Positions 1-20,873 of a stretch of 64,000 bases of DNA are shown here, piece by piece. Position 1 is the stretch's first letter; every line of letters starts with the position of its first letter. The stretch is taken from positions 228,778 through 292,777 of the forward strand of contig JAXMHB010000003.1 in assembly GCA_046346965.1 (NCBI GenBank), written 5' to 3'. This DNA is from Lysobacterales bacterium. GTDB lineage: Bacteria; Pseudomonadota; Gammaproteobacteria; Xanthomonadales; SZUA-5. The translations under genes and the position numbers were made by a program. Below the pieces are notes generated by a model. It did not search any database. It was not told the DNA's origin and was given only the letters and a program-made list of their open reading frames with translations.

Positions 1-168
1 CCGCCAGACCCAACAAAGCGACTGCATGAAGCAGCTGTAGAAGGCACCGTCGCATATCGCTACTCCGCTCTGCATGCTGCGCAGCATCGCGCGCCCAGGC
101 TGATCGCTTCCTGAGCGCGCAATTCCGGCCGATAGAGACGCTCTTGCCAATCATTGTGCTTGGGCAAA

Positions 169-285
169 AGCGGGGCGGGGGTTAGGGGGCGGGGGACCGG
201 CATTGCGGCGCCCGCGTTGCGCTGTCGCCAACTTGCAGAACAAGTAAGCACGCCGAAGGCGAGACAGGGACTCTGAAAAGTCTCG
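169..285 (+). repeat. Dispersed intergenic repeat element, copy 1 of 3 (about 115 bp). Its 5' end is G4C-G5-TTA-G5C-G5 (180-203), a canonical G-quadruplex motif
   Basis: Near-identical to 8306-8431 and partially to 20678-20720. All three are on the + strand. It produces the same spurious peptide (MPVPRPLTPAPLL) in three antisense ORFs of the track. Confidence 0.75.
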
Positions 286-418
286 ACTCTGCTGCGCGTA
301 CTCGGGCGGCAAACAGGTCCCCGCGACCGCGCGACGGCAGCGGGGCAGTGCTGGTCCCCTGCCCCTCACCCTCGCACCGCTTTCGCGCCCACGCGCTCAT
401 CTTGGGCAGGAGGCACCC

Positions 419-571
419 TAGCGCTTCTTGCTGCCGCGCTTGCGCTTGGCCTCGGGTTTCGGGGCGTCAGCGGCCTTGGGCGGCTGGTCGCCGATGATCG
501 ACTTGGCCGGGCACACGCTGAAGATCGGGCATTTGCGGCAGCCTACGGCCAGGGCGACAGGGCATAGGGTC
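419..571 (-). CDS. Small cysteine-rich basic protein, 51 aa: MTLCPVALAVGCRKCPIFSVCPAKSIIGDQPPKAADAPKPEAKRKRGSKKR. The Cys pattern is C-x7-C-x2-C-x5-C, followed by a Lys/Pro/Ala-rich tail
   Basis: Not in the ORF track (under 60 aa). ATG at 571 with GGAG about 9 nt upstream. About 90% G/C at codon position 3 in this frame. Lies immediately downstream of, and co-oriented with, the ligase/epimerase pair. Confidence 0.5.
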
Positions 572-606
572 ATGGGGATGCTCCGACGGGTGGTGGACGC
601 TGAAGC

Positions 607-1599
607 TTAGTCCGATTTACCCGAGTGTGCCGCCAGACGACGAAAGCCCTCGTCCATGCTGACCCTGGGCGCGTAGCCGAAATCGCGCCGCGCGGCGCTG
701 ATGTCGTACCAGTGCGCGGTAGCCAGATGATCGGCGACAAAGCGCGTCATCAGCGGCTCGCCGGGTAGCGGCAGCACGGTCCATGCCGCCTCCATCAGCG
801 CACCGACGGCGTAGGCCAGCGCAAACGGAGTGCGCGCTTGCACCGGCGGCAACCCGGCACACGCCAGCATGCGATTGATCATGTCCTCGGTGGTCAGCGG
901 CTCGCCGTTGGAGATGAAGTAGGCGCGACCCGCCTGCGGCGCGCCGGGCGCCAGCGTCGCCGCCGCCAGCAGATGGGCGTCGACGGCGTTGTCGATGTAG
1001 GTGGTGTCGATGCGCTTGCCAGGTTTGCCGATAAAGCGCAGGCGACCGGCGCGGGCGCGCTCGACGATGCGCGGGTACAAATGGTTGTCGCCCGGCCCCC
1101 AGATCAGGTGCGGGCGCAGCGCCACGGTGGCCAGCGTCGGGCCGTTGGCCGCCAGCACCAGCTGCTCGGCGATCGCCTTGGTGGCCGGATAGTGCGCGAG
1201 AAAGCGCGTGGCATAGGGCACGCGCTCATCGACGCCTTCGAGATCGCCGCCGCTGTGCACCACGCTGGGCGTAGAGGTGTAGACCAGCCGTCCGATGCCA
1301 TGCTGCCGGCAGGCAGCCAGCACGTGCGCAGTGCCGTCCACATTGGCGCGCCGGTACTCGGCCAGCGTGCCCCAGTGCCCGGCTTTGGCCGCGACGTGGA
1401 AGACCACATCACAGCCGGCGGCGGCGGCCGATACCGCATTCGCATCACCGAGATCCCCCCGACAAACCACCGCCCCGAGTGCGCGCAGCGCCGGCGCGTC
1501 GCCGCGCTGCAGCGCCACCACGGCATGCCCCTGCGCCAGCAGCGCACGGGCGATCGCGCCGCCCAGAAAGCCCCCTGCACCGGTCACCAGCGCGCGCAT
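607..1599 (-). CDS. NAD-dependent epimerase/dehydratase of the 3-beta-hydroxysteroid dehydrogenase family (OleD-like reductase)
   Basis: Rossmann motif VTGAGGFLG and YxxxK (YPATK). The likely start is MRALVTG, whose ATG overlaps the upstream stop (TGATG coupling). The longer MGEHAG start would overlap by 37 nt. Confidence 0.85.
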   Translation of the reverse strand: MRALVTGAGGFLGGAIARALLAQGHAVVALQRGDAPALRALGAVVCRGDLGDANAVSAAAAGCDVVFHVAAKAGHWGTLAEYRRANVDGTAHVLAACRQHGIGRLVYTSTPSVVHSGGDLEGVDERVPYATRFLAHYPATKAIAEQLVLAANGPTLATVALRPHLIWGPGDNHLYPRIVERARAGRLRFIGKPGKRIDTTYIDNAVDAHLLAAATLAPGAPQAGRAYFISNGEPLTTEDMINRMLACAGLPPVQARTPFALAYAVGALMEAAWTVLPLPGEPLMTRFVADHLATAHWYDISAARRDFGYAPRVSMDEGFRRLAAHSGKSD

Positions 1600-3281
1600 C
1601 AGTGGACGGCTCCCGGTACCCGCGTGCTCGCCCATTGCTTCAAATACTCGCGCCCGATCTTGGCGTTGTGGCGGATGTCGACCGGGAAGCGCGGGTAATA
1701 CAGCACATGCCGCAGGGCGCGGGTGTGTTCGTGGCGCTTGGCCATCACCAGCAGTTCCTCGCGGATACGTGCCTGCTGATCGCGGCCCACATCGGGCTCC
1801 AGCTCGACGATCAGCACCGGCTCTTCCTGCCCCTGCGGCCCGACGCCGACCAAGGCGGTGCGGAACACCTGCGGATGGGTGTTAAAGATCGGCTCGACCT
1901 GTTCGGTGCAGAGCGTGCCCTGGGCACTCTCGACCCGCTGCGAGCGCCGACCGCACATCCACAGCCGGCCGGCGTCGTCGAAGTAGCCGAGATCGCCCAT
2001 CCGGTGCACGATGCGCTCGCCCTCGCGGATCTTGCCCAGCGCATCGGCATCCGGGCGATTGAAGTAGCGCTCGGTCGCGGTGGGTCCGACTACCGTGATC
2101 TCGCCGACGCTGCCAGTCGGCAGCTCCAGCTCCGCGCGCCAGTCGGGGATCGGCGCGTCGCTGATGCCGATGATGCGCACCCGATTGGGCGACACCACGC
2201 GGCCGACCAGCGTGCCGGCGCCGTGCTCGGTGCGCGTGCGCGCGTACTCGGTCAGCTCGCGGCCCTCGACCACCGCCACCGGCAGGCACTCGGTGGCGCC
2301 GTAGGGCGTCCACAGCTGAGCGTCCTCCGGCAGCAGCTTGCGCATGCGCTCGACCACGGCCACCGGCACCGGCGCACCGGCGGAAATGACGCGGCGCAAG
2401 GTCGGCAGCTTGACGCCACGCGGCGCGCCCCAGCGCGACAGCGCATTGACCAGCGCCGGCGAGGCAAACAGGTTGGTGACGCCAAAGTCGTGGATGGTCT
2501 GGATCAACTTGCCGGGATCGGCCATCGCCGGACGGGTCGGATCCATCTCCGGGATCACCGTGGTCATCCCGAGCGCCGGATCGAACAGCGCAAACGGCGG
2601 GAAAGTCGGCAGATCGATCTCGCCGGGGCGAATGTCGAAGGCCTGGCGCAGCAAGTCCACCTGCGCCAGAAAATGCCGGTGCTGGTAGACCACGCCCTTG
2701 GGCACGCCGGTGGAGCCGGAGGTAAACAGGATCGCGGCCGCATCGTCCTCGCGGGTGTCGGCCAGCACTGCCTTGCAGCGACGACGCGCGTCACTGCCCT
2801 CGCGGCCGATCTTCAAGAGCTCGGCGTAACTGTGGCCGCCCCAGGCAAAGCGCGGACCGACGGTCACCAGGGTGCGCAGCGTGCGCCGTCCCCAGCCGAG
2901 CGCGATGCGCGCCGCGTGCGCCAGCGGAATGCCGATGAAGGCTTGCGGCTCGGCCTCGGCCAGACACTGCTTGAGCGCCGACTTGGCGATGCCGGGGTCG
3001 ATCAGCACCGGCACCGCGCCGGCCTTGAACAGCGCAAACATGAGTACGAACAGTTCGACACTGGGACGCACCATCAGCACCGTGCGCACGCCGCGGCCGA
3101 TGCCGATGCGGTCGAGTCCGCAGGCGATCGCGTCGGACTCCTCGTCCAGTTGCGCGTAAGTCAGATGCGTGTGTGCCGGGCGCCCGGCCAGATCGCTGCC
3201 GCAGGGTACGAAGATCGCGATCTGATGCGGTCGCTCGCGTGCCATCCGCGTCAGCGCAGAGGCGATATTGACGCTGTCCAT
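1599..3281 (-). CDS. AMP-dependent synthetase/ligase (acyl-CoA synthetase or fatty-acyl-AMP ligase, OleC-like)
   Basis: Adenylate-forming superfamily motifs (FTSGSTGVPKGV, TPYGATE, GDLGYFD). Start chosen at MDSVNIASALTR. The track ORF extends further upstream. Confidence 0.85.
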   Translation of the reverse strand: MDSVNIASALTRMARERPHQIAIFVPCGSDLAGRPAHTHLTYAQLDEESDAIACGLDRIGIGRGVRTVLMVRPSVELFVLMFALFKAGAVPVLIDPGIAKSALKQCLAEAEPQAFIGIPLAHAARIALGWGRRTLRTLVTVGPRFAWGGHSYAELLKIGREGSDARRRCKAVLADTREDDAAAILFTSGSTGVPKGVVYQHRHFLAQVDLLRQAFDIRPGEIDLPTFPPFALFDPALGMTTVIPEMDPTRPAMADPGKLIQTIHDFGVTNLFASPALVNALSRWGAPRGVKLPTLRRVISAGAPVPVAVVERMRKLLPEDAQLWTPYGATECLPVAVVEGRELTEYARTRTEHGAGTLVGRVVSPNRVRIIGISDAPIPDWRAELELPTGSVGEITVVGPTATERYFNRPDADALGKIREGERIVHRMGDLGYFDDAGRLWMCGRRSQRVESAQGTLCTEQVEPIFNTHPQVFRTALVGVGPQGQEEPVLIVELEPDVGRDQQARIREELLVMAKRHEHTRALRHVLYYPRFPVDIRHNAKIGREYLKQWASTRVPGAVH

Positions 3282-3410
3282 GGGCGGGCGGCAGACAAAG
3301 GGGGCGCAAGCCTGCCGCGTCCGCCGTGTGGGGTCAATCGGCGGCGCGCTGCTCACCTTTGGCGCCAGCGCCCGCGCTAGACTGCCGCGCGTCCGTCCGC
3401 AGGAGCAGCG

Positions 3411-4885
3411 TGGTGAATCGACTTGCAGCAGCATTGGCCCTGATTTTGAGCGCGGCGCAAGCCGATGCCGGCGCGCTCGTGACGCCAGCGGTGAACGCCG
3501 AGATCCACGCCAAAGGCAAAGCCAGCGTGCTGCTGGTGCTGCGCGATGCGCTTCAGGTCGATATGGCCGTGGCGCGCCGTCAGGGCGACGACAAGCTGAG
3601 CACTGCGGTGACGCTGCTGCAGCAGCATGCCGAGCGCACGCAGGCGCCGCTGCGCGCCTGGCTGGACGCCCGCGGTATCCACTACCGCGCCTTCTGGGTG
3701 GCCAACTTCATCTCCATTGACGCCGATGCCGACACCTTGAGCGCGCTGGCGGCACGCGATGACCTCGCCGCGATCGAACTCGACGCCAAACTCGGCCTGC
3801 CCCCGGTGGCCGAGGAATATCCCGGGCCAGTGCGCGCGATCACCGCCATCGAGCCCGGCGTCAGCCAGGTCAACGCACCAGCGGTGTGGGCGATGGGCTT
3901 TCGCGGACAGAACGTGCTGGTCGCCGGCCAGGACACCGGCTACCAATGGGATCACCCGGCGCTGAAGGCCAAATACGCCGGCTGGGATGGCAGCAGCGCC
4001 AATCACAACTACCGCTGGCACGATGCCATCGGCCCCGGTGGCAGCGGCGGCAGCTGCGGCGTGTCCGCGCAAGCTCCCTGCGACGACAACTCGCACGGCA
4101 CCCACACCATGGGCACCATCGTCGGCGACGACGGCGGCAGCAATCAGATCGGCGTGGCGCCCGGCGCGCGCTGGATCGGCTGTCGCAACATGGACCAGGG
4201 CAACGGCACACCGACCACCTACAGCGACTGCTTCCAGTGGCTGATGGCGCCGACCGATCTCACCGGCCAGAACCCGAATCCGGCAATGGCGCCGCACATC
4301 ATCAACAACTCCTGGGGCTGCCCGAGCAGCGAGGGCTGCACCACGCCGAACATTCTGCAGACGGTGGTCGAGAACGTGCGCGCCAGCGGCATTCTGGTGG
4401 TGGTCTCGGCCGGCAACTCGGGCTCCGGCTGTTCCACCATCGCCGAGCCGCCGGCGATCTACGCCGCCAGCTTCACCGTCGGCGCCGTCAGCGGCACCAG
4501 CATGGCCAGCTTCAGCAGCCGTGGGCCGGTGACGGTGGATGGCAGCAACCGCATGAAGCCCGATATCGTCGCCCCCGGGGTCAATGTCCGCTCCTCCACG
4601 CCGGGAAACAGCTATCTCGCGTTGAACGGCACCAGCATGGCCGGCCCGCATGTGGCCGGCGTGGCCGCGCTGCTGATGTCGGCCGATCCCACGCTGCGCC
4701 GCGACCCGGCGCGCATCGAGGCGCTGATGCGCAATACCGCCGTACTCGACACCGTCAGCAGTCAGCTGTGCGGCGGCGTGCCGACCACCACCATCCCGAA
4801 CCCGGTATTCGGCTACGGCCGCGTCGATGCGCTGTCGGCCGTCCGCAACGGCTTGGGCATGTTCGGCATCAACGGCTTCGAATGA
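3411..4885 (+). CDS. Secreted subtilisin-like serine protease (peptidase S8)
   Basis: Signal peptide NRLAAALALILSAAQA after AGGAG+GTG. Catalytic triad motifs DTGY (Asp), HGTHTMGT (His) and GTSMAGPHVAG (Ser). Confidence 0.9.
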
Positions 4886-8305: not shown

Positions 8306-8431
8306 GGGGCAAAAGCGGGGCGGGGGTGAGGGGGCGGGGGACCGGCACTGCAGTGCATGCGTTGCACGGTCGCCGGCTTGCAGAACGAACGAGCGCGCCG
8401 AAGGCGAGGCAGGGACTCTGAACAAGGCTCG
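8306..8431 (+). repeat. Dispersed intergenic repeat element, copy 2 of 3. The G4 motif is at 8317-8340
   Basis: Aligns with 169-285 over about 115 bp. Sits in the divergent sulfatase/pgk promoter region. Confidence 0.75.
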
Positions 8432-20677: not shown

Positions 20678-20720
20678 AGCGGGGCGGGGGTCAGGGGGCG
20701 GGGGACCGGCATTGTCGCCT
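20678..20720 (+). repeat. Dispersed repeat element, copy 3 (truncated, 5' G4 part only). G-runs at 20682-20705
   Basis: CAGCGGGGCGGGGGTCAGGGGGCGGGGGACCGGCATTG matches copies 1 and 2. Confidence 0.7.
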
Positions 20721-20731
20721 TTGCGTGGCTG

Positions 20732-20873
20732 GTCCCGAGTCCCGAGTCCCGAGTCCCGAGTCCCGAGTCCCGAGTCCCGAGTCCCGAGTCCCGAGTCCCG
20801 AGTCCCGAGTCCCAGTCCCAAGTCCCAGTCCCGGGTCCCGAGTCCCGGGTCCCGGGTCCCGAGCCCAGGGTCC
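20732..20873. repeat. Heptanucleotide microsatellite (GAGTCCC)n. Ten perfect units at 20739-20808, flanked by degenerate units
   Basis: Read directly in the sequence. Lies about 110 bp upstream of the Grx-fusion gene start. Confidence 0.85.

What the first reader, a model, noticed from the sequence alone, without database searches (positions are those of the whole stretch)
419..3281. OleC/OleD-like ligase-reductase pair translationally coupled to a 51-aa Cys-rich basic peptide
An adenylate-forming acyl ligase (1599-3281) and a 3-beta-HSD-family NAD(P) reductase (607-1599) overlap by TGATG. This is the OleC-OleD pairing of olefin or beta-lactone-type pathways. No OleA thiolase or OleB hydrolase is adjacent. 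A divergent secreted subtilase sits upstream instead. Directly downstream on the same strand is an unannotated 51-aa ORF with strong coding signal (GC3 about 90%, GGAG RBS). It carries four cysteines (C-x7-C-x2-C-x5-C) and a Lys/Pro/Ala-rich basic tail. It could be a small zinc-ribbon or DNA-binding protein, or a precursor or carrier peptide for the ligase-reductase pair. The same operon also touches the first copy of the dispersed G4 element.
Basis: partly seen in the sequence, partly recalled or inferred. Interest (0 to 1): 0.55.

Follow-up and report, generated by a model that had tools for sequence, protein, structure and literature searches.

The report
oleCD pair beside unrelated small Cys4 gene
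An ordinary olefin/beta-lactone enzyme pair (OleC and OleD) has recently come to lie next to a widespread, uncharacterised 51-residue four-cysteine protein gene, and comparison with relatives shows the two are not a functional unit.

Summary
The sequence features are real. All three genes are on the minus strand. An oleC-type adenylate-forming enzyme (1599-3281) overlaps an oleD-type reductase (607-1599) by TGATG. A 51-aa ORF (418-573) follows after 33 nt, with C-x7-C-x2-C-x5-C and a Lys/Pro/Ala tail.

The enzyme pair looks like orthologues of OleC/OleD. It belongs to a Lysobacterales clade where oleCD stands without oleA/oleB within 8-10 kb. Neither gene occurs anywhere in the 64-kb window.

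The small ORF is a genuine gene of a large family with no Pfam or NCBIfam model. The family has at least 577 species genomes and 387 clusters at 50% identity. Its four Cys are invariant, and synonymous changes far outnumber nonsynonymous ones.

The small gene is not linked to oleCD:
- 0 of 80 genome loci holding it have oleCD.
- 0 of 85 oleC loci have it.
- In a MAG whose OleC is 86% identical, the two lie on different contigs.
- Only three contigs from the closest relatives found share the arrangement.

The small gene has its own Shine-Dalgarno site. It also has a -10-like box that overlaps the oleD stop codon. The adjacency is best read as a recent rearrangement.

The small protein's function is unknown. 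My best guess is a Cys4 metal or [4Fe-4S] mini-protein with a polycationic tail.

The parts
1599..3281 (-). oleC-type adenylate-forming enzyme (olefin beta-lactone synthetase family), 560 aa
   Evidence: Pfam AMP-binding, E = 5e-55. NCBIfam OlefBLtnSynXan scores 846 bits against a cut-off of 900, aligned end to end; PRK09274 scores 729 against 478. It is 84-91% identical to a small clade and 61-65% identical to many Lysobacterales OleC. An oleABCD-linked relative (L133) scores 854 bits.
607..1599 (-). oleD-type NAD(P)H-dependent 2-alkyl-3-oxoalkanoate reductase (3-beta-HSD/SDR family), 330 aa. Its start overlaps the oleC stop (TGATG).
   Evidence: Pfam 3Beta_HSD, E = 1e-48. NCBIfam oxyalk_red_OleD scores 479 bits against a cut-off of 580, aligned end to end. 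An oleABCD-linked relative (L157) scores 474 bits. The C-terminus ...LAAHSGKSD differs from that of sister lineages.
418..573 (-). Gene for a 51-aa Cys4 protein. It has a 29-aa conserved core (C4, C12, C15, C21; P5, A7, P22, G28, D29) and a disordered Lys/Pro/Ala tail. It belongs to a family with no Pfam or NCBIfam model.
   Evidence: 375 homologues. At least 577 species genomes. 387 clusters at 50% identity, all short stand-alone proteins. The four Cys are invariant in 141 of 141 sequences. 8 synonymous versus 1 nonsynonymous difference against L081. No Pfam, NCBIfam or PDB match.
581..584 (-). Shine-Dalgarno GGAG, 7 nt upstream of the small gene's ATG
   Evidence: Read directly from the sequence. 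An SD-like tetramer lies within 20 nt of the start in 74 of 80 homologous loci.
604..609 (-). -10-like hexamer TAAGCT, 31-36 nt upstream of the small gene's ATG. Its TAA is the oleD stop codon.
   Evidence: GG[AC]CTAAGCT is shared with L081-83 and with L001, L004, L005, L012 and L030, which have no oleD upstream. A TAnnnT hexamer lies in the -55..-25 window in 41 of 79 loci, against 5-13% in control windows, with a peak at -40..-31. Promoter function is inferred, not shown.
121..417 (.). About 284 nt of extra intergenic DNA downstream of the small gene, carrying the G-rich dispersed repeat (core at 172-198). It is not part of the operon's function.
   Evidence: The orthologous spacer in L081 is 13 nt. 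The core repeat occurs 3 times in the window, with 0 expected. Copies 1 and 2 share about 130 nt.
1..55 (-). Start (ATG 55-53) of the next gene, a secreted protein of the 'c10' family. It runs off the window.
   Evidence: The 5' flank and the start align with the 284-aa gene after the small gene in L081. The same family follows the small gene in L001, L005, L012 and L030.
3326..4885 (+). Divergently transcribed secreted S8 subtilase (context only)
   Evidence: Pfam Peptidase_S8, E = 5e-45. It is syntenic in L081.

Best explanation
Two unrelated units lie side by side.

(1) oleC-oleD is a translationally coupled pair. By homology, OleD reduces a 2-alkyl-3-oxo fatty acid to the 3-hydroxy acid with NAD(P)H. 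OleC then closes that acid to a beta-lactone with ATP. These two steps belong to the head-to-head olefin/beta-lactone pathway. That pathway needs an OleA thiolase to make the substrate and OleB to decarboxylate the lactone. In this Lysobacterales clade oleCD is physically separated from oleA/oleB. Whether those genes lie elsewhere in the genome is undetermined.

(2) The second unit is an independent, widely conserved gene for a protein of about 50 aa. Its four invariant cysteines most likely hold a metal centre, either a [4Fe-4S] cluster or Zn. Its variable polycationic tail most likely tethers it to a polyanionic partner such as nucleic acid, ribosome or membrane.

The small gene has its own Shine-Dalgarno site and probably its own promoter. 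Its place behind oleD comes from a recent rearrangement in the window's immediate lineage, whose junction lies in the last codons of oleD.

Shown: the gene identities, the conservation, and the lack of linkage. Inferred: the enzyme chemistry (from family), the promoter, the rearrangement junction, metal binding, and the role of the tail.
For: OleC/OleD identity:
- The best NCBIfam models are the two Ole equivalogs, aligned end to end.
- oleABCD-linked relatives score no higher: L133 OleC 854 bits and L157 OleD 474 bits.
- The canonical oleA-oleB-oleC-oleD order is seen in many 55-62% identical loci.

Orphan clade:
- In the OleC tree the window groups with L084 and L090-L094. None of these has oleA or oleB in the DNA fetched (8-10 kb upstream for all except L092, 0.2 kb).
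- A second such clade is L087, L089 and L095.

No oleA or oleB in the window:
- tblastn with 20 OleA/OleB sequences gave nothing better than E = 0.03.
- The OleA signature EPxx[AS]x(14,18)DxxNACL (PMC7158056) hit 0 times, against 20 of 21 controls.

The small gene is real:
-.

No linkage:
- 0 of 80 small-gene loci have oleC or oleD.
- No neighbour family occurs in more than 10 of 80 loci.
- 0 of 85 oleC loci have the small gene.
- In MAG JADKFD01 the small gene is on contig 4 (L012) and oleCD on contig 5 (L084).
- Only L081-83 keep the trio.

Own expression signals and junction:
-.

Metal-site inference:
- The four Cys are invariant in 141 of 141 sequences.
- The C-x7-C-x2-C-x5-C spacing resembles the [4Fe-4S] motifs of endonuclease III/MutY (C-X6-C-X2-C-X5-C; PMC11138216) and of the RseC N-domain (CX5CX2CX5C, which reconstitutes an O2-sensitive [4Fe-4S]; PMC11729352).
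- AlphaFold confidence is low without a cofactor, as that paper also reports for RseC.
Against: - No terminator-like site lies between oleD and the small gene. Read-through co-transcription is therefore likely in this genome, so co-expression cannot be excluded.
- The arrangement is kept in three independent metagenome contigs. Their small protein is 92% identical and their ligase region about 82% identical, so they are close relatives and this says little.
- Both Ole HMM scores fall below NCBI's curated cut-offs.
- Metal binding rests on motif resemblance only. hhalign against WhiB1 gave 3.6% probability. Only 1 of 115 members gave a weak Pfam Whib hit. No structure match was found.
- The promoter is a consensus-level inference.
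Confidence: 0.72

Rival explanations
1. The small protein is a dedicated partner of the ligase-reductase pair: a carrier, a precursor peptide acylated by the ligase, or a regulator. The three genes would then form one functional operon.
For: Same strand, a 33-nt spacer and no terminator-like site between them. The order is kept in L081-L083.
Against: Absent from all 80 small-gene loci and all 85 oleC loci. The two lie on different contigs in a MAG whose OleC is 86% identical. The family is spread over Burkholderiales, Acidobacteriota and Polyangiaceae with unrelated neighbours. There is no carrier-protein or RiPP hallmark. The conserved part is the N-terminal Cys core, and the tail is variable low-complexity sequence.
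Confidence: 0.04
2. The oleCD pair is not part of an olefin pathway in this lineage. The genome lacks oleA and oleB, and the pair acts on another source of beta-keto or beta-hydroxy acids, or makes a beta-lactone as the end product.
For: The window's clade and a second clade never have oleA or oleB within 8-10 kb. The window's clade sits on a long branch and scores below both equivalog cut-offs.
Against: oleABCD-linked relatives score just as low (L133, L157). The second orphan clade and Chiayiivirga flava pass the OleC cut-off at 957-978 bits. According to the literature, only 251 of 920 OleA-like genes had at least two flanking ole genes, so split clusters are plausible (PMC7064751). The rest of the genome could not be searched.
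Confidence: 0.25
3. The small protein is a membrane-associated or lipid-anchored peptide rather than a soluble metal-binding protein. Either the hydrophobic core acts as a hairpin, or it is a lipoprotein with AVGC as the lipobox.
For: The core is hydrophobic, with 12 of 29 residues aliphatic or aromatic. A positive tail is typical of the cytoplasmic side of small membrane proteins.
Against: R/K13-K14 interrupt the hydrophobic stretch, which is too short for a transmembrane helix. A signal peptide of 11 residues with no positive N-region, and with an invariant C4-P5, is not credible. All four Cys and three CP dipeptides are invariant, which points to a ligand set.
Confidence: 0.12
4. The small ORF is a RiPP precursor or a toxin-type small peptide.
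For: Short, Cys-rich and missing from the family libraries.
Against: No conserved maturase, transporter or antitoxin neighbour in 80 loci. Conservation across phyla under strong purifying selection. No match in plasmids.
Confidence: 0.03

Closest known systems
OleC, olefin beta-lactone synthetase (Xanthomonas campestris / Stenotrophomonas type; NCBIfam NF045786)
   Same: ANL-superfamily fold. End-to-end match to the OleC model at 846 bits. Followed by, and translationally coupled to, an OleD-type reductase. 61-65% identical to Lysobacterales proteins that NCBI and JGI name olefin beta-lactone synthetase.
   Different: The score is just below the curated cut-off of 900. No oleA or oleB is adjacent or anywhere in 64 kb. 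It belongs to a long-branched clade that is always uncoupled from oleAB.
OleD, 2-alkyl-3-oxoalkanoate reductase (NCBIfam NF042422)
   Same: 3-beta-HSD/extended-SDR fold with an N-terminal TGxxGFLG motif. End-to-end match at 479 bits, the same as the oleABCD-linked L157 at 474 bits.
   Different: Below the cut-off of 580. The last 9 or so residues are lineage-specific and run into the small gene's upstream region.
[4Fe-4S] loop of endonuclease III / MutY (Cys-X6-Cys-X2-Cys-X5-Cys) and the RseC N-terminal motif (CX5CX2CX5C)
   Same: Four Cys with the same X2 and X5 spacings, and a CxxCP core, as in MutY's CSLCP (the MutY sequence is recalled from memory). Literature: PMC11138216, PMC11729352.
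   Different: The first spacer is 7, not 5 or 6. There is no glycosylase or RseC membrane domain. There is no detectable sequence homology. Metal content is untested.
WhiB-like (Wbl) proteins of Actinobacteria
   Same: Small size. A C-Xn-C-X2-C-X5-C ligand pattern with C-x-[RK]-C-P-[VI]-x3-C: WhiB1 has CNRCPVTTEC, here CRKCPIFSVC. A basic C-terminal tail.
   Different: hhalign probability is 3.6%. The Pfam Whib model hit 1 of 115 members at E = 0.0097. There is no G[VI]WGG turn. The protein is half the size. It is found in Gram-negative phyla. This is an analogy at most.

Membership tests
OleC (olefin beta-lactone synthetase) | ANL/AMP-binding fold with a full-length match to the OleC equivalog HMM at or above the curated cut-off (900 bits) | tested here: inconclusive
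   846 bits, end to end, which is below the cut-off. The oleABCD-linked L133 scores 854 bits and clade mates score 814-832 bits, so the cut-off is stricter than the family.
OleC (olefin beta-lactone synthetase) | Gene context with oleD | tested here: met
   TGATG overlap with an OleD-type reductase. The pairing is conserved in nearly all relatives.
OleC (olefin beta-lactone synthetase) | Gene context with oleA (thiolase) and oleB (alpha/beta-hydrolase) | tested here: not met
   None in the 64-kb window. None within 8-10 kb in clade mates.
OleC (olefin beta-lactone synthetase) | ATP-dependent beta-lactone formation from 2-alkyl-3-hydroxy acids | not testable with these tools
   Needs an enzyme assay.
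OleD (2-alkyl-3-oxoalkanoate reductase) | Extended SDR/3-beta-HSD fold with a full-length match to the OleD equivalog HMM at or above 580 bits | tested here: inconclusive
   479 bits, end to end. The oleABCD-linked L157 scores 474 bits and L115 scores 564 bits, both also below the cut-off.
Wbl (WhiB-like) Fe-S regulators | Match to Pfam Whib (PF02467) or profile homology to WhiB1 | tested here: not met
   1 of 115 members hit at E = 0.0097. hhalign gave 3.6% probability over 21 columns.
Wbl (WhiB-like) Fe-S regulators | C-Xn-C-X2-C-X5-C ligand pattern plus a G[VI]WGG turn and a basic tail | tested here: inconclusive
   The Cys pattern and the basic tail are present. The GVWGG turn is absent, with I-G-D in its place.
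Zinc ribbon / classical Cys4 zinc finger | Two CxxC (or CPxC) knuckles on beta-hairpins | tested here: not met
   There is only one CxxC (C12-C15). The AF2 model has two short helices and no hairpins, at low confidence. No Pfam zinc-ribbon hit.
RiPP precursor or carrier peptide of the adjacent enzymes | Conserved co-location with the modifying or loading enzymes | tested here: not met
   0 of 80 and 0 of 85 loci. No neighbour family occurs in more than 10 of 80 loci.
Bacterial lipoprotein | Signal peptide with a positive N-region, a hydrophobic region of at least 7 residues, and a lipobox [LVI][ASTVI][GAS]C | tested here: not met
   Read from the sequence: only 11 residues precede C12, there is no Lys or Arg in the N-region, and position -3 is Ala. 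C4-P5 is invariant inside the would-be signal peptide.

The most novel reading that the evidence does not exclude
The 51-aa protein founds an undescribed family of free-standing [4Fe-4S]-binding mini-proteins in Gram-negative soil and freshwater bacteria. These include Lysobacterales, Burkholderiales, Acidobacteriota and Polyangiaceae. The 29-residue cluster module would sense O2, NO or iron status. The polycationic tail would deliver that signal to DNA, RNA or the transcription machinery. This would be a functional analogue of actinobacterial Wbl proteins that arose independently. Separately, the oleCD-only clades could mark a beta-lactone or olefin pathway with an unlinked or different condensing enzyme.
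Probability: 0.15. Interest if true: 0.6.

Novelty: new member of a known kind. Interest (0 to 1): 0.27.

Why it matters
The proposed ligase-reductase-peptide system does not exist as a unit, so it should not be pursued as a new lipopeptide or carrier pathway.

Two smaller points survive:
- Whole clades of Lysobacterales keep oleCD away from oleAB. Genome-mining rules that require clustering (as in PMC7064751 and PMC7158056) will therefore miss or misjudge them.
- A conserved small protein with four invariant cysteines, found in at least 577 species genomes, has no family model and no known function. It is a cheap target for metal analysis and deletion phenotyping.

Tried and rejected
- Pfam and NCBIfam on the small protein gave nothing. 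Scanning all 115 members at E <= 10 gave only scattered weak hits.
- A PDB sequence-profile search gave 0 hits at E <= 10.
- Two AlphaFold runs gave pLDDT 56 and 63, too low to use. Foldseek against the PDB gave 0 hits.
- hhalign against WhiB1 gave 3.6% probability, so homology was rejected.
- The longer 'fusion' members of the family look like frameshift or read-through artefacts, not domain fusions.
- tblastn of the small protein against plasmids gave no match.
- Rfam on 1-3600 gave only a sub-threshold chance hit.
- The consensus promoter scan found no full sigma-70 site in 1-3700. The -10-only signal came from the comparative analysis.
- k-mer enrichment upstream of the small gene found no shared operator, only GC-rich words.
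- The FabH-like genes after the small gene in betaproteobacterial loci are only 25-29% identical to OleA, so they are not oleA.
- A lipoprotein reading and a RiPP reading were considered and rejected; see the rival explanations.
- I ran no further search on OleA. The top-120 listing was unlikely to reveal whether the orphan-clade genomes encode it.
- The literature searches found no paper on oleCD-only loci or on this small protein.
Full report
**Observation.**
The minus strand of window 418-3281 carries three ORFs in a row.
- The first is a 560-aa AMP-binding enzyme at 1599-3281.
- The second is a 330-aa 3-beta-HSD/SDR protein at 607-1599. The stop of the first gene and the start of the second share one base (TGATG).
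- The third is a 51-aa ORF at 418-573. It follows a 33-nt spacer that contains GGAG at 584-581.

The peptide is MTLCPVALAVGCRKCPIFSVCPAKSIIGDQPPKAADAPKPEAKRKRGSKKR. Its cysteine pattern is C-x7-C-x2-C-x5-C and its GC3 is 0.88. A divergent S8 subtilase lies at 3326-4885. The one exception is that the small ORF does not overlap oleD, so it is not translationally coupled in the strict sense.

**The enzyme pair.**
NCBIfam ranks the OleC and OleD equivalog models first, both aligned end to end. OleC (Xanthomonas type) scores 846 bits against a cut-off of 900. OleD scores 479 bits against 580. The sub-threshold scores do not argue against Ole function, because relatives inside complete oleA-oleB-oleC-oleD clusters score the same: L133 OleC 854 bits and L157 OleD 474 bits.

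Close homologues of the ligase (84-91% identity) form a small clade. The next tier, at 61-65% identity, includes proteins that NCBI and JGI name olefin beta-lactone synthetase.

The pathway chemistry comes from the literature. OleA condenses two acyl-CoAs. [quoted passage not shown] OleC forms the beta-lactone. OleB decarboxylates it to the olefin (PMC7158056, PMC7064751).

**Where are oleA and oleB?**
I recovered OleA (about 338 aa, MLFQHVAIAGLAHVDAP...) and OleB (about 300 aa, an alpha/beta-hydrolase) from metagenome loci that show the canonical gene order. Three tests found neither gene in the window:
- tblastn with 20 of these sequences against the whole window gave nothing better than E = 0.03.
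- The published OleA signature hit 20 of 21 controls and 0 of the six reading frames of the window.
- Ten mid-sized window ORFs have unrelated Pfam domains.

In a neighbour-joining tree of OleC, the window groups with L084 and L090-L094 on a long branch. None of these loci has oleA or oleB in the DNA fetched (8-10 kb upstream for all except L092, 0.2 kb). L087, L089 and L095 form a second such clade, and Chiayiivirga flava (L085) shows the same layout. oleCD without adjacent oleAB is therefore a lineage property, not a peculiarity of this window. I could not test whether oleAB lie elsewhere in these genomes.

**The small ORF is a real gene.**
- It has 375 homologues at E <= 0.01, all about 50 aa and all labelled 'hypothetical' or unnamed.
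- A scan of species-representative genomes found at least 577 carriers. These include Lysobacterales, Burkholderiales, Rhodocyclales, Nevskiales, Acidobacteriota and Polyangiaceae.
- An exhaustive HMM search found 387 clusters at 50% identity. All are short and stand-alone. The few longer members look like read-through artefacts.
- Across 141 diverse members, C4, P5, A7, C12, C15, C21 and P22 are invariant, and G28-D29 is nearly so.
- The tail has a median length of 21 residues, is 20% Lys, and has a net positive charge in 75% of members.
- Against its nearest relative, the 29-codon core differs at 8 synonymous sites and 1 nonsynonymous site.

**The small gene is not linked to oleCD.**
- In 80 genome loci centred on the small gene, with up to 10 kb on each side, none encodes an OleC or OleD relative next to it.
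- No neighbour family is present in more than 10 of the 80 loci. The neighbours are histidine kinases, an isoaspartyl peptidase, a GNAT, a GST, KorAB, a FabH-like enzyme, DUF2784 and others.
- Conversely, none of 85 oleC loci has the small gene. This includes the 84-87% identical sister lineages.
- MAG JADKFD01 carries the small gene on contig 4 (L012) and oleCD on contig 5 (L084).
- Only three short metagenome contigs, from relatives whose small protein is 92% identical, keep the order ligase-reductase-small gene.

What is conserved among Lysobacterales relatives is the downstream side. The small gene is followed by a secreted 280-aa protein (family c10) in L001, L005, L012, L030, L081 and in the window, where that gene starts at 55-53.

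**Own expression signals and the junction.**
- An SD-like tetramer precedes the start in 74 of 80 loci.
- A TAnnnT hexamer lies in the -55..-25 window before the ATG in 41 of 79 loci. Control windows show 5-13%. The signal peaks sharply at -40..-31.
- In the window this hexamer is TAAGCT at 609-604, and its TAA is the oleD stop codon.
- The surrounding GG[AC]CTAAGCT, and a CACTC motif upstream of it, are shared with relatives that have no oleD there.
- The last residues of this OleD (...LAAHSGKSD) differ from those of sister lineages.

I infer that a rearrangement placed oleCD onto the small gene's promoter region, and that oleD now terminates inside it. No terminator-like site separates the two genes, so read-through transcription is likely. 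That would be incidental rather than functional.

**What the small protein may do.**
No family, solved structure or fold matches it. AlphaFold is unsure, with pLDDT of 56 and 63 and two short helices.

The ligand spacing resembles known [4Fe-4S] sites. Endonuclease III and MutY use Cys-X6-Cys-X2-Cys-X5-Cys (PMC11138216). The RseC N-domain uses CX5CX2CX5C, reconstitutes an oxygen-sensitive [4Fe-4S] cluster, and is also poorly modelled by AlphaFold (PMC11729352). Wbl proteins use C-Xn-C-X2-C-X5-C. WhiB1 has CNRCPVTTEC where this protein has CRKCPIFSVC; I recalled the WhiB1 sequence from memory and verified it against PDB entry 5OAY.

Homology to Wbl is not supported. hhalign gave 3.6% probability, and only 1 of 115 members gave a weak Pfam hit.

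My working model is a Cys4 metal centre, with [4Fe-4S] somewhat more likely than Zn. It would sit in a hydrophobic 29-residue module, joined to a polycationic tail that binds a polyanionic partner. This model is inferred from motifs only.

**Verdict.**
The finding combines an ordinary, already-known enzyme pair with an unrelated neighbour. The proposed three-gene system is not supported. What remains of interest is modest: clades of Lysobacterales with oleCD unlinked from oleAB, and a widespread Cys4 mini-protein family with no model in Pfam or NCBIfam.

Noticed in passing
window 172-198, 8317-8343, 20681-20707 (+): A G-rich 27-nt core, GGGGCGGGGGTNAGGGGGCGGGGGACC, occurs three times where 0 are expected. 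Copies 1 and 2 share about 130 nt of flanking sequence. Copy 1 sits in a stretch of about 284 nt (121-417) that is absent from the orthologous spacer in L081, so it looks like an inserted dispersed element.
   Followed up: partly
window ~20720-20850 (+): The third copy of the G-rich core is followed by a tandem array of a heptamer-like unit (CCCGAGT)n. This was seen in the alignment of the three copies.
   Followed up: no
L084 8278-9948 and L094 6247-7947: In two sister lineages a polytopic membrane protein of 556-566 aa lies directly upstream of oleC on the same strand. The two copies are 47% identical, and the L084 copy has no Pfam hit on record. In L094 the gene overlaps oleC. It is absent from the window. 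It may be an additional partner of orphan oleCD in those lineages.
   Followed up: partly
L041, L048, L053, L063, L068, L016: In betaproteobacterial and Casimicrobiaceae loci the small Cys4 gene is followed by a FabH-like KAS III gene with a Cys-His-Asn triad, on the same strand in the five loci checked. That gene is only 25-29% identical to OleA. This is probably lineage synteny.
   Followed up: partly
L035, L038 (Chiayiivirga MAGs); L084 20089-21713: In Chiayiivirga the small gene directly follows genes for the beta subunit (and in L035 also the alpha subunit) of a korAB-like 2-oxoacid:ferredoxin oxidoreductase. A korAB-like pair also lies about 8 kb from oleCD in MAG JADKFD01. This is compatible with an Fe-S or electron-carrier role, but it is seen in only a few loci.
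   Followed up: no
L085 12829-13470; L088 3250-5552 and other oleC loci: In many Lysobacterales loci oleD is followed by an SCP2-domain gene (UbiJ/UbiT-like) and ubiB, which are ubiquinone-biosynthesis neighbours. This is not the case in the window.
   Followed up: no
window 428-610 (+): An antisense 60-aa ORF overlaps the small gene and also has high GC3 (0.84). A simple GC3-based gene caller preferred it. Homology and the pattern of substitutions show that the minus-strand ORF is the real gene.
   Followed up: yes
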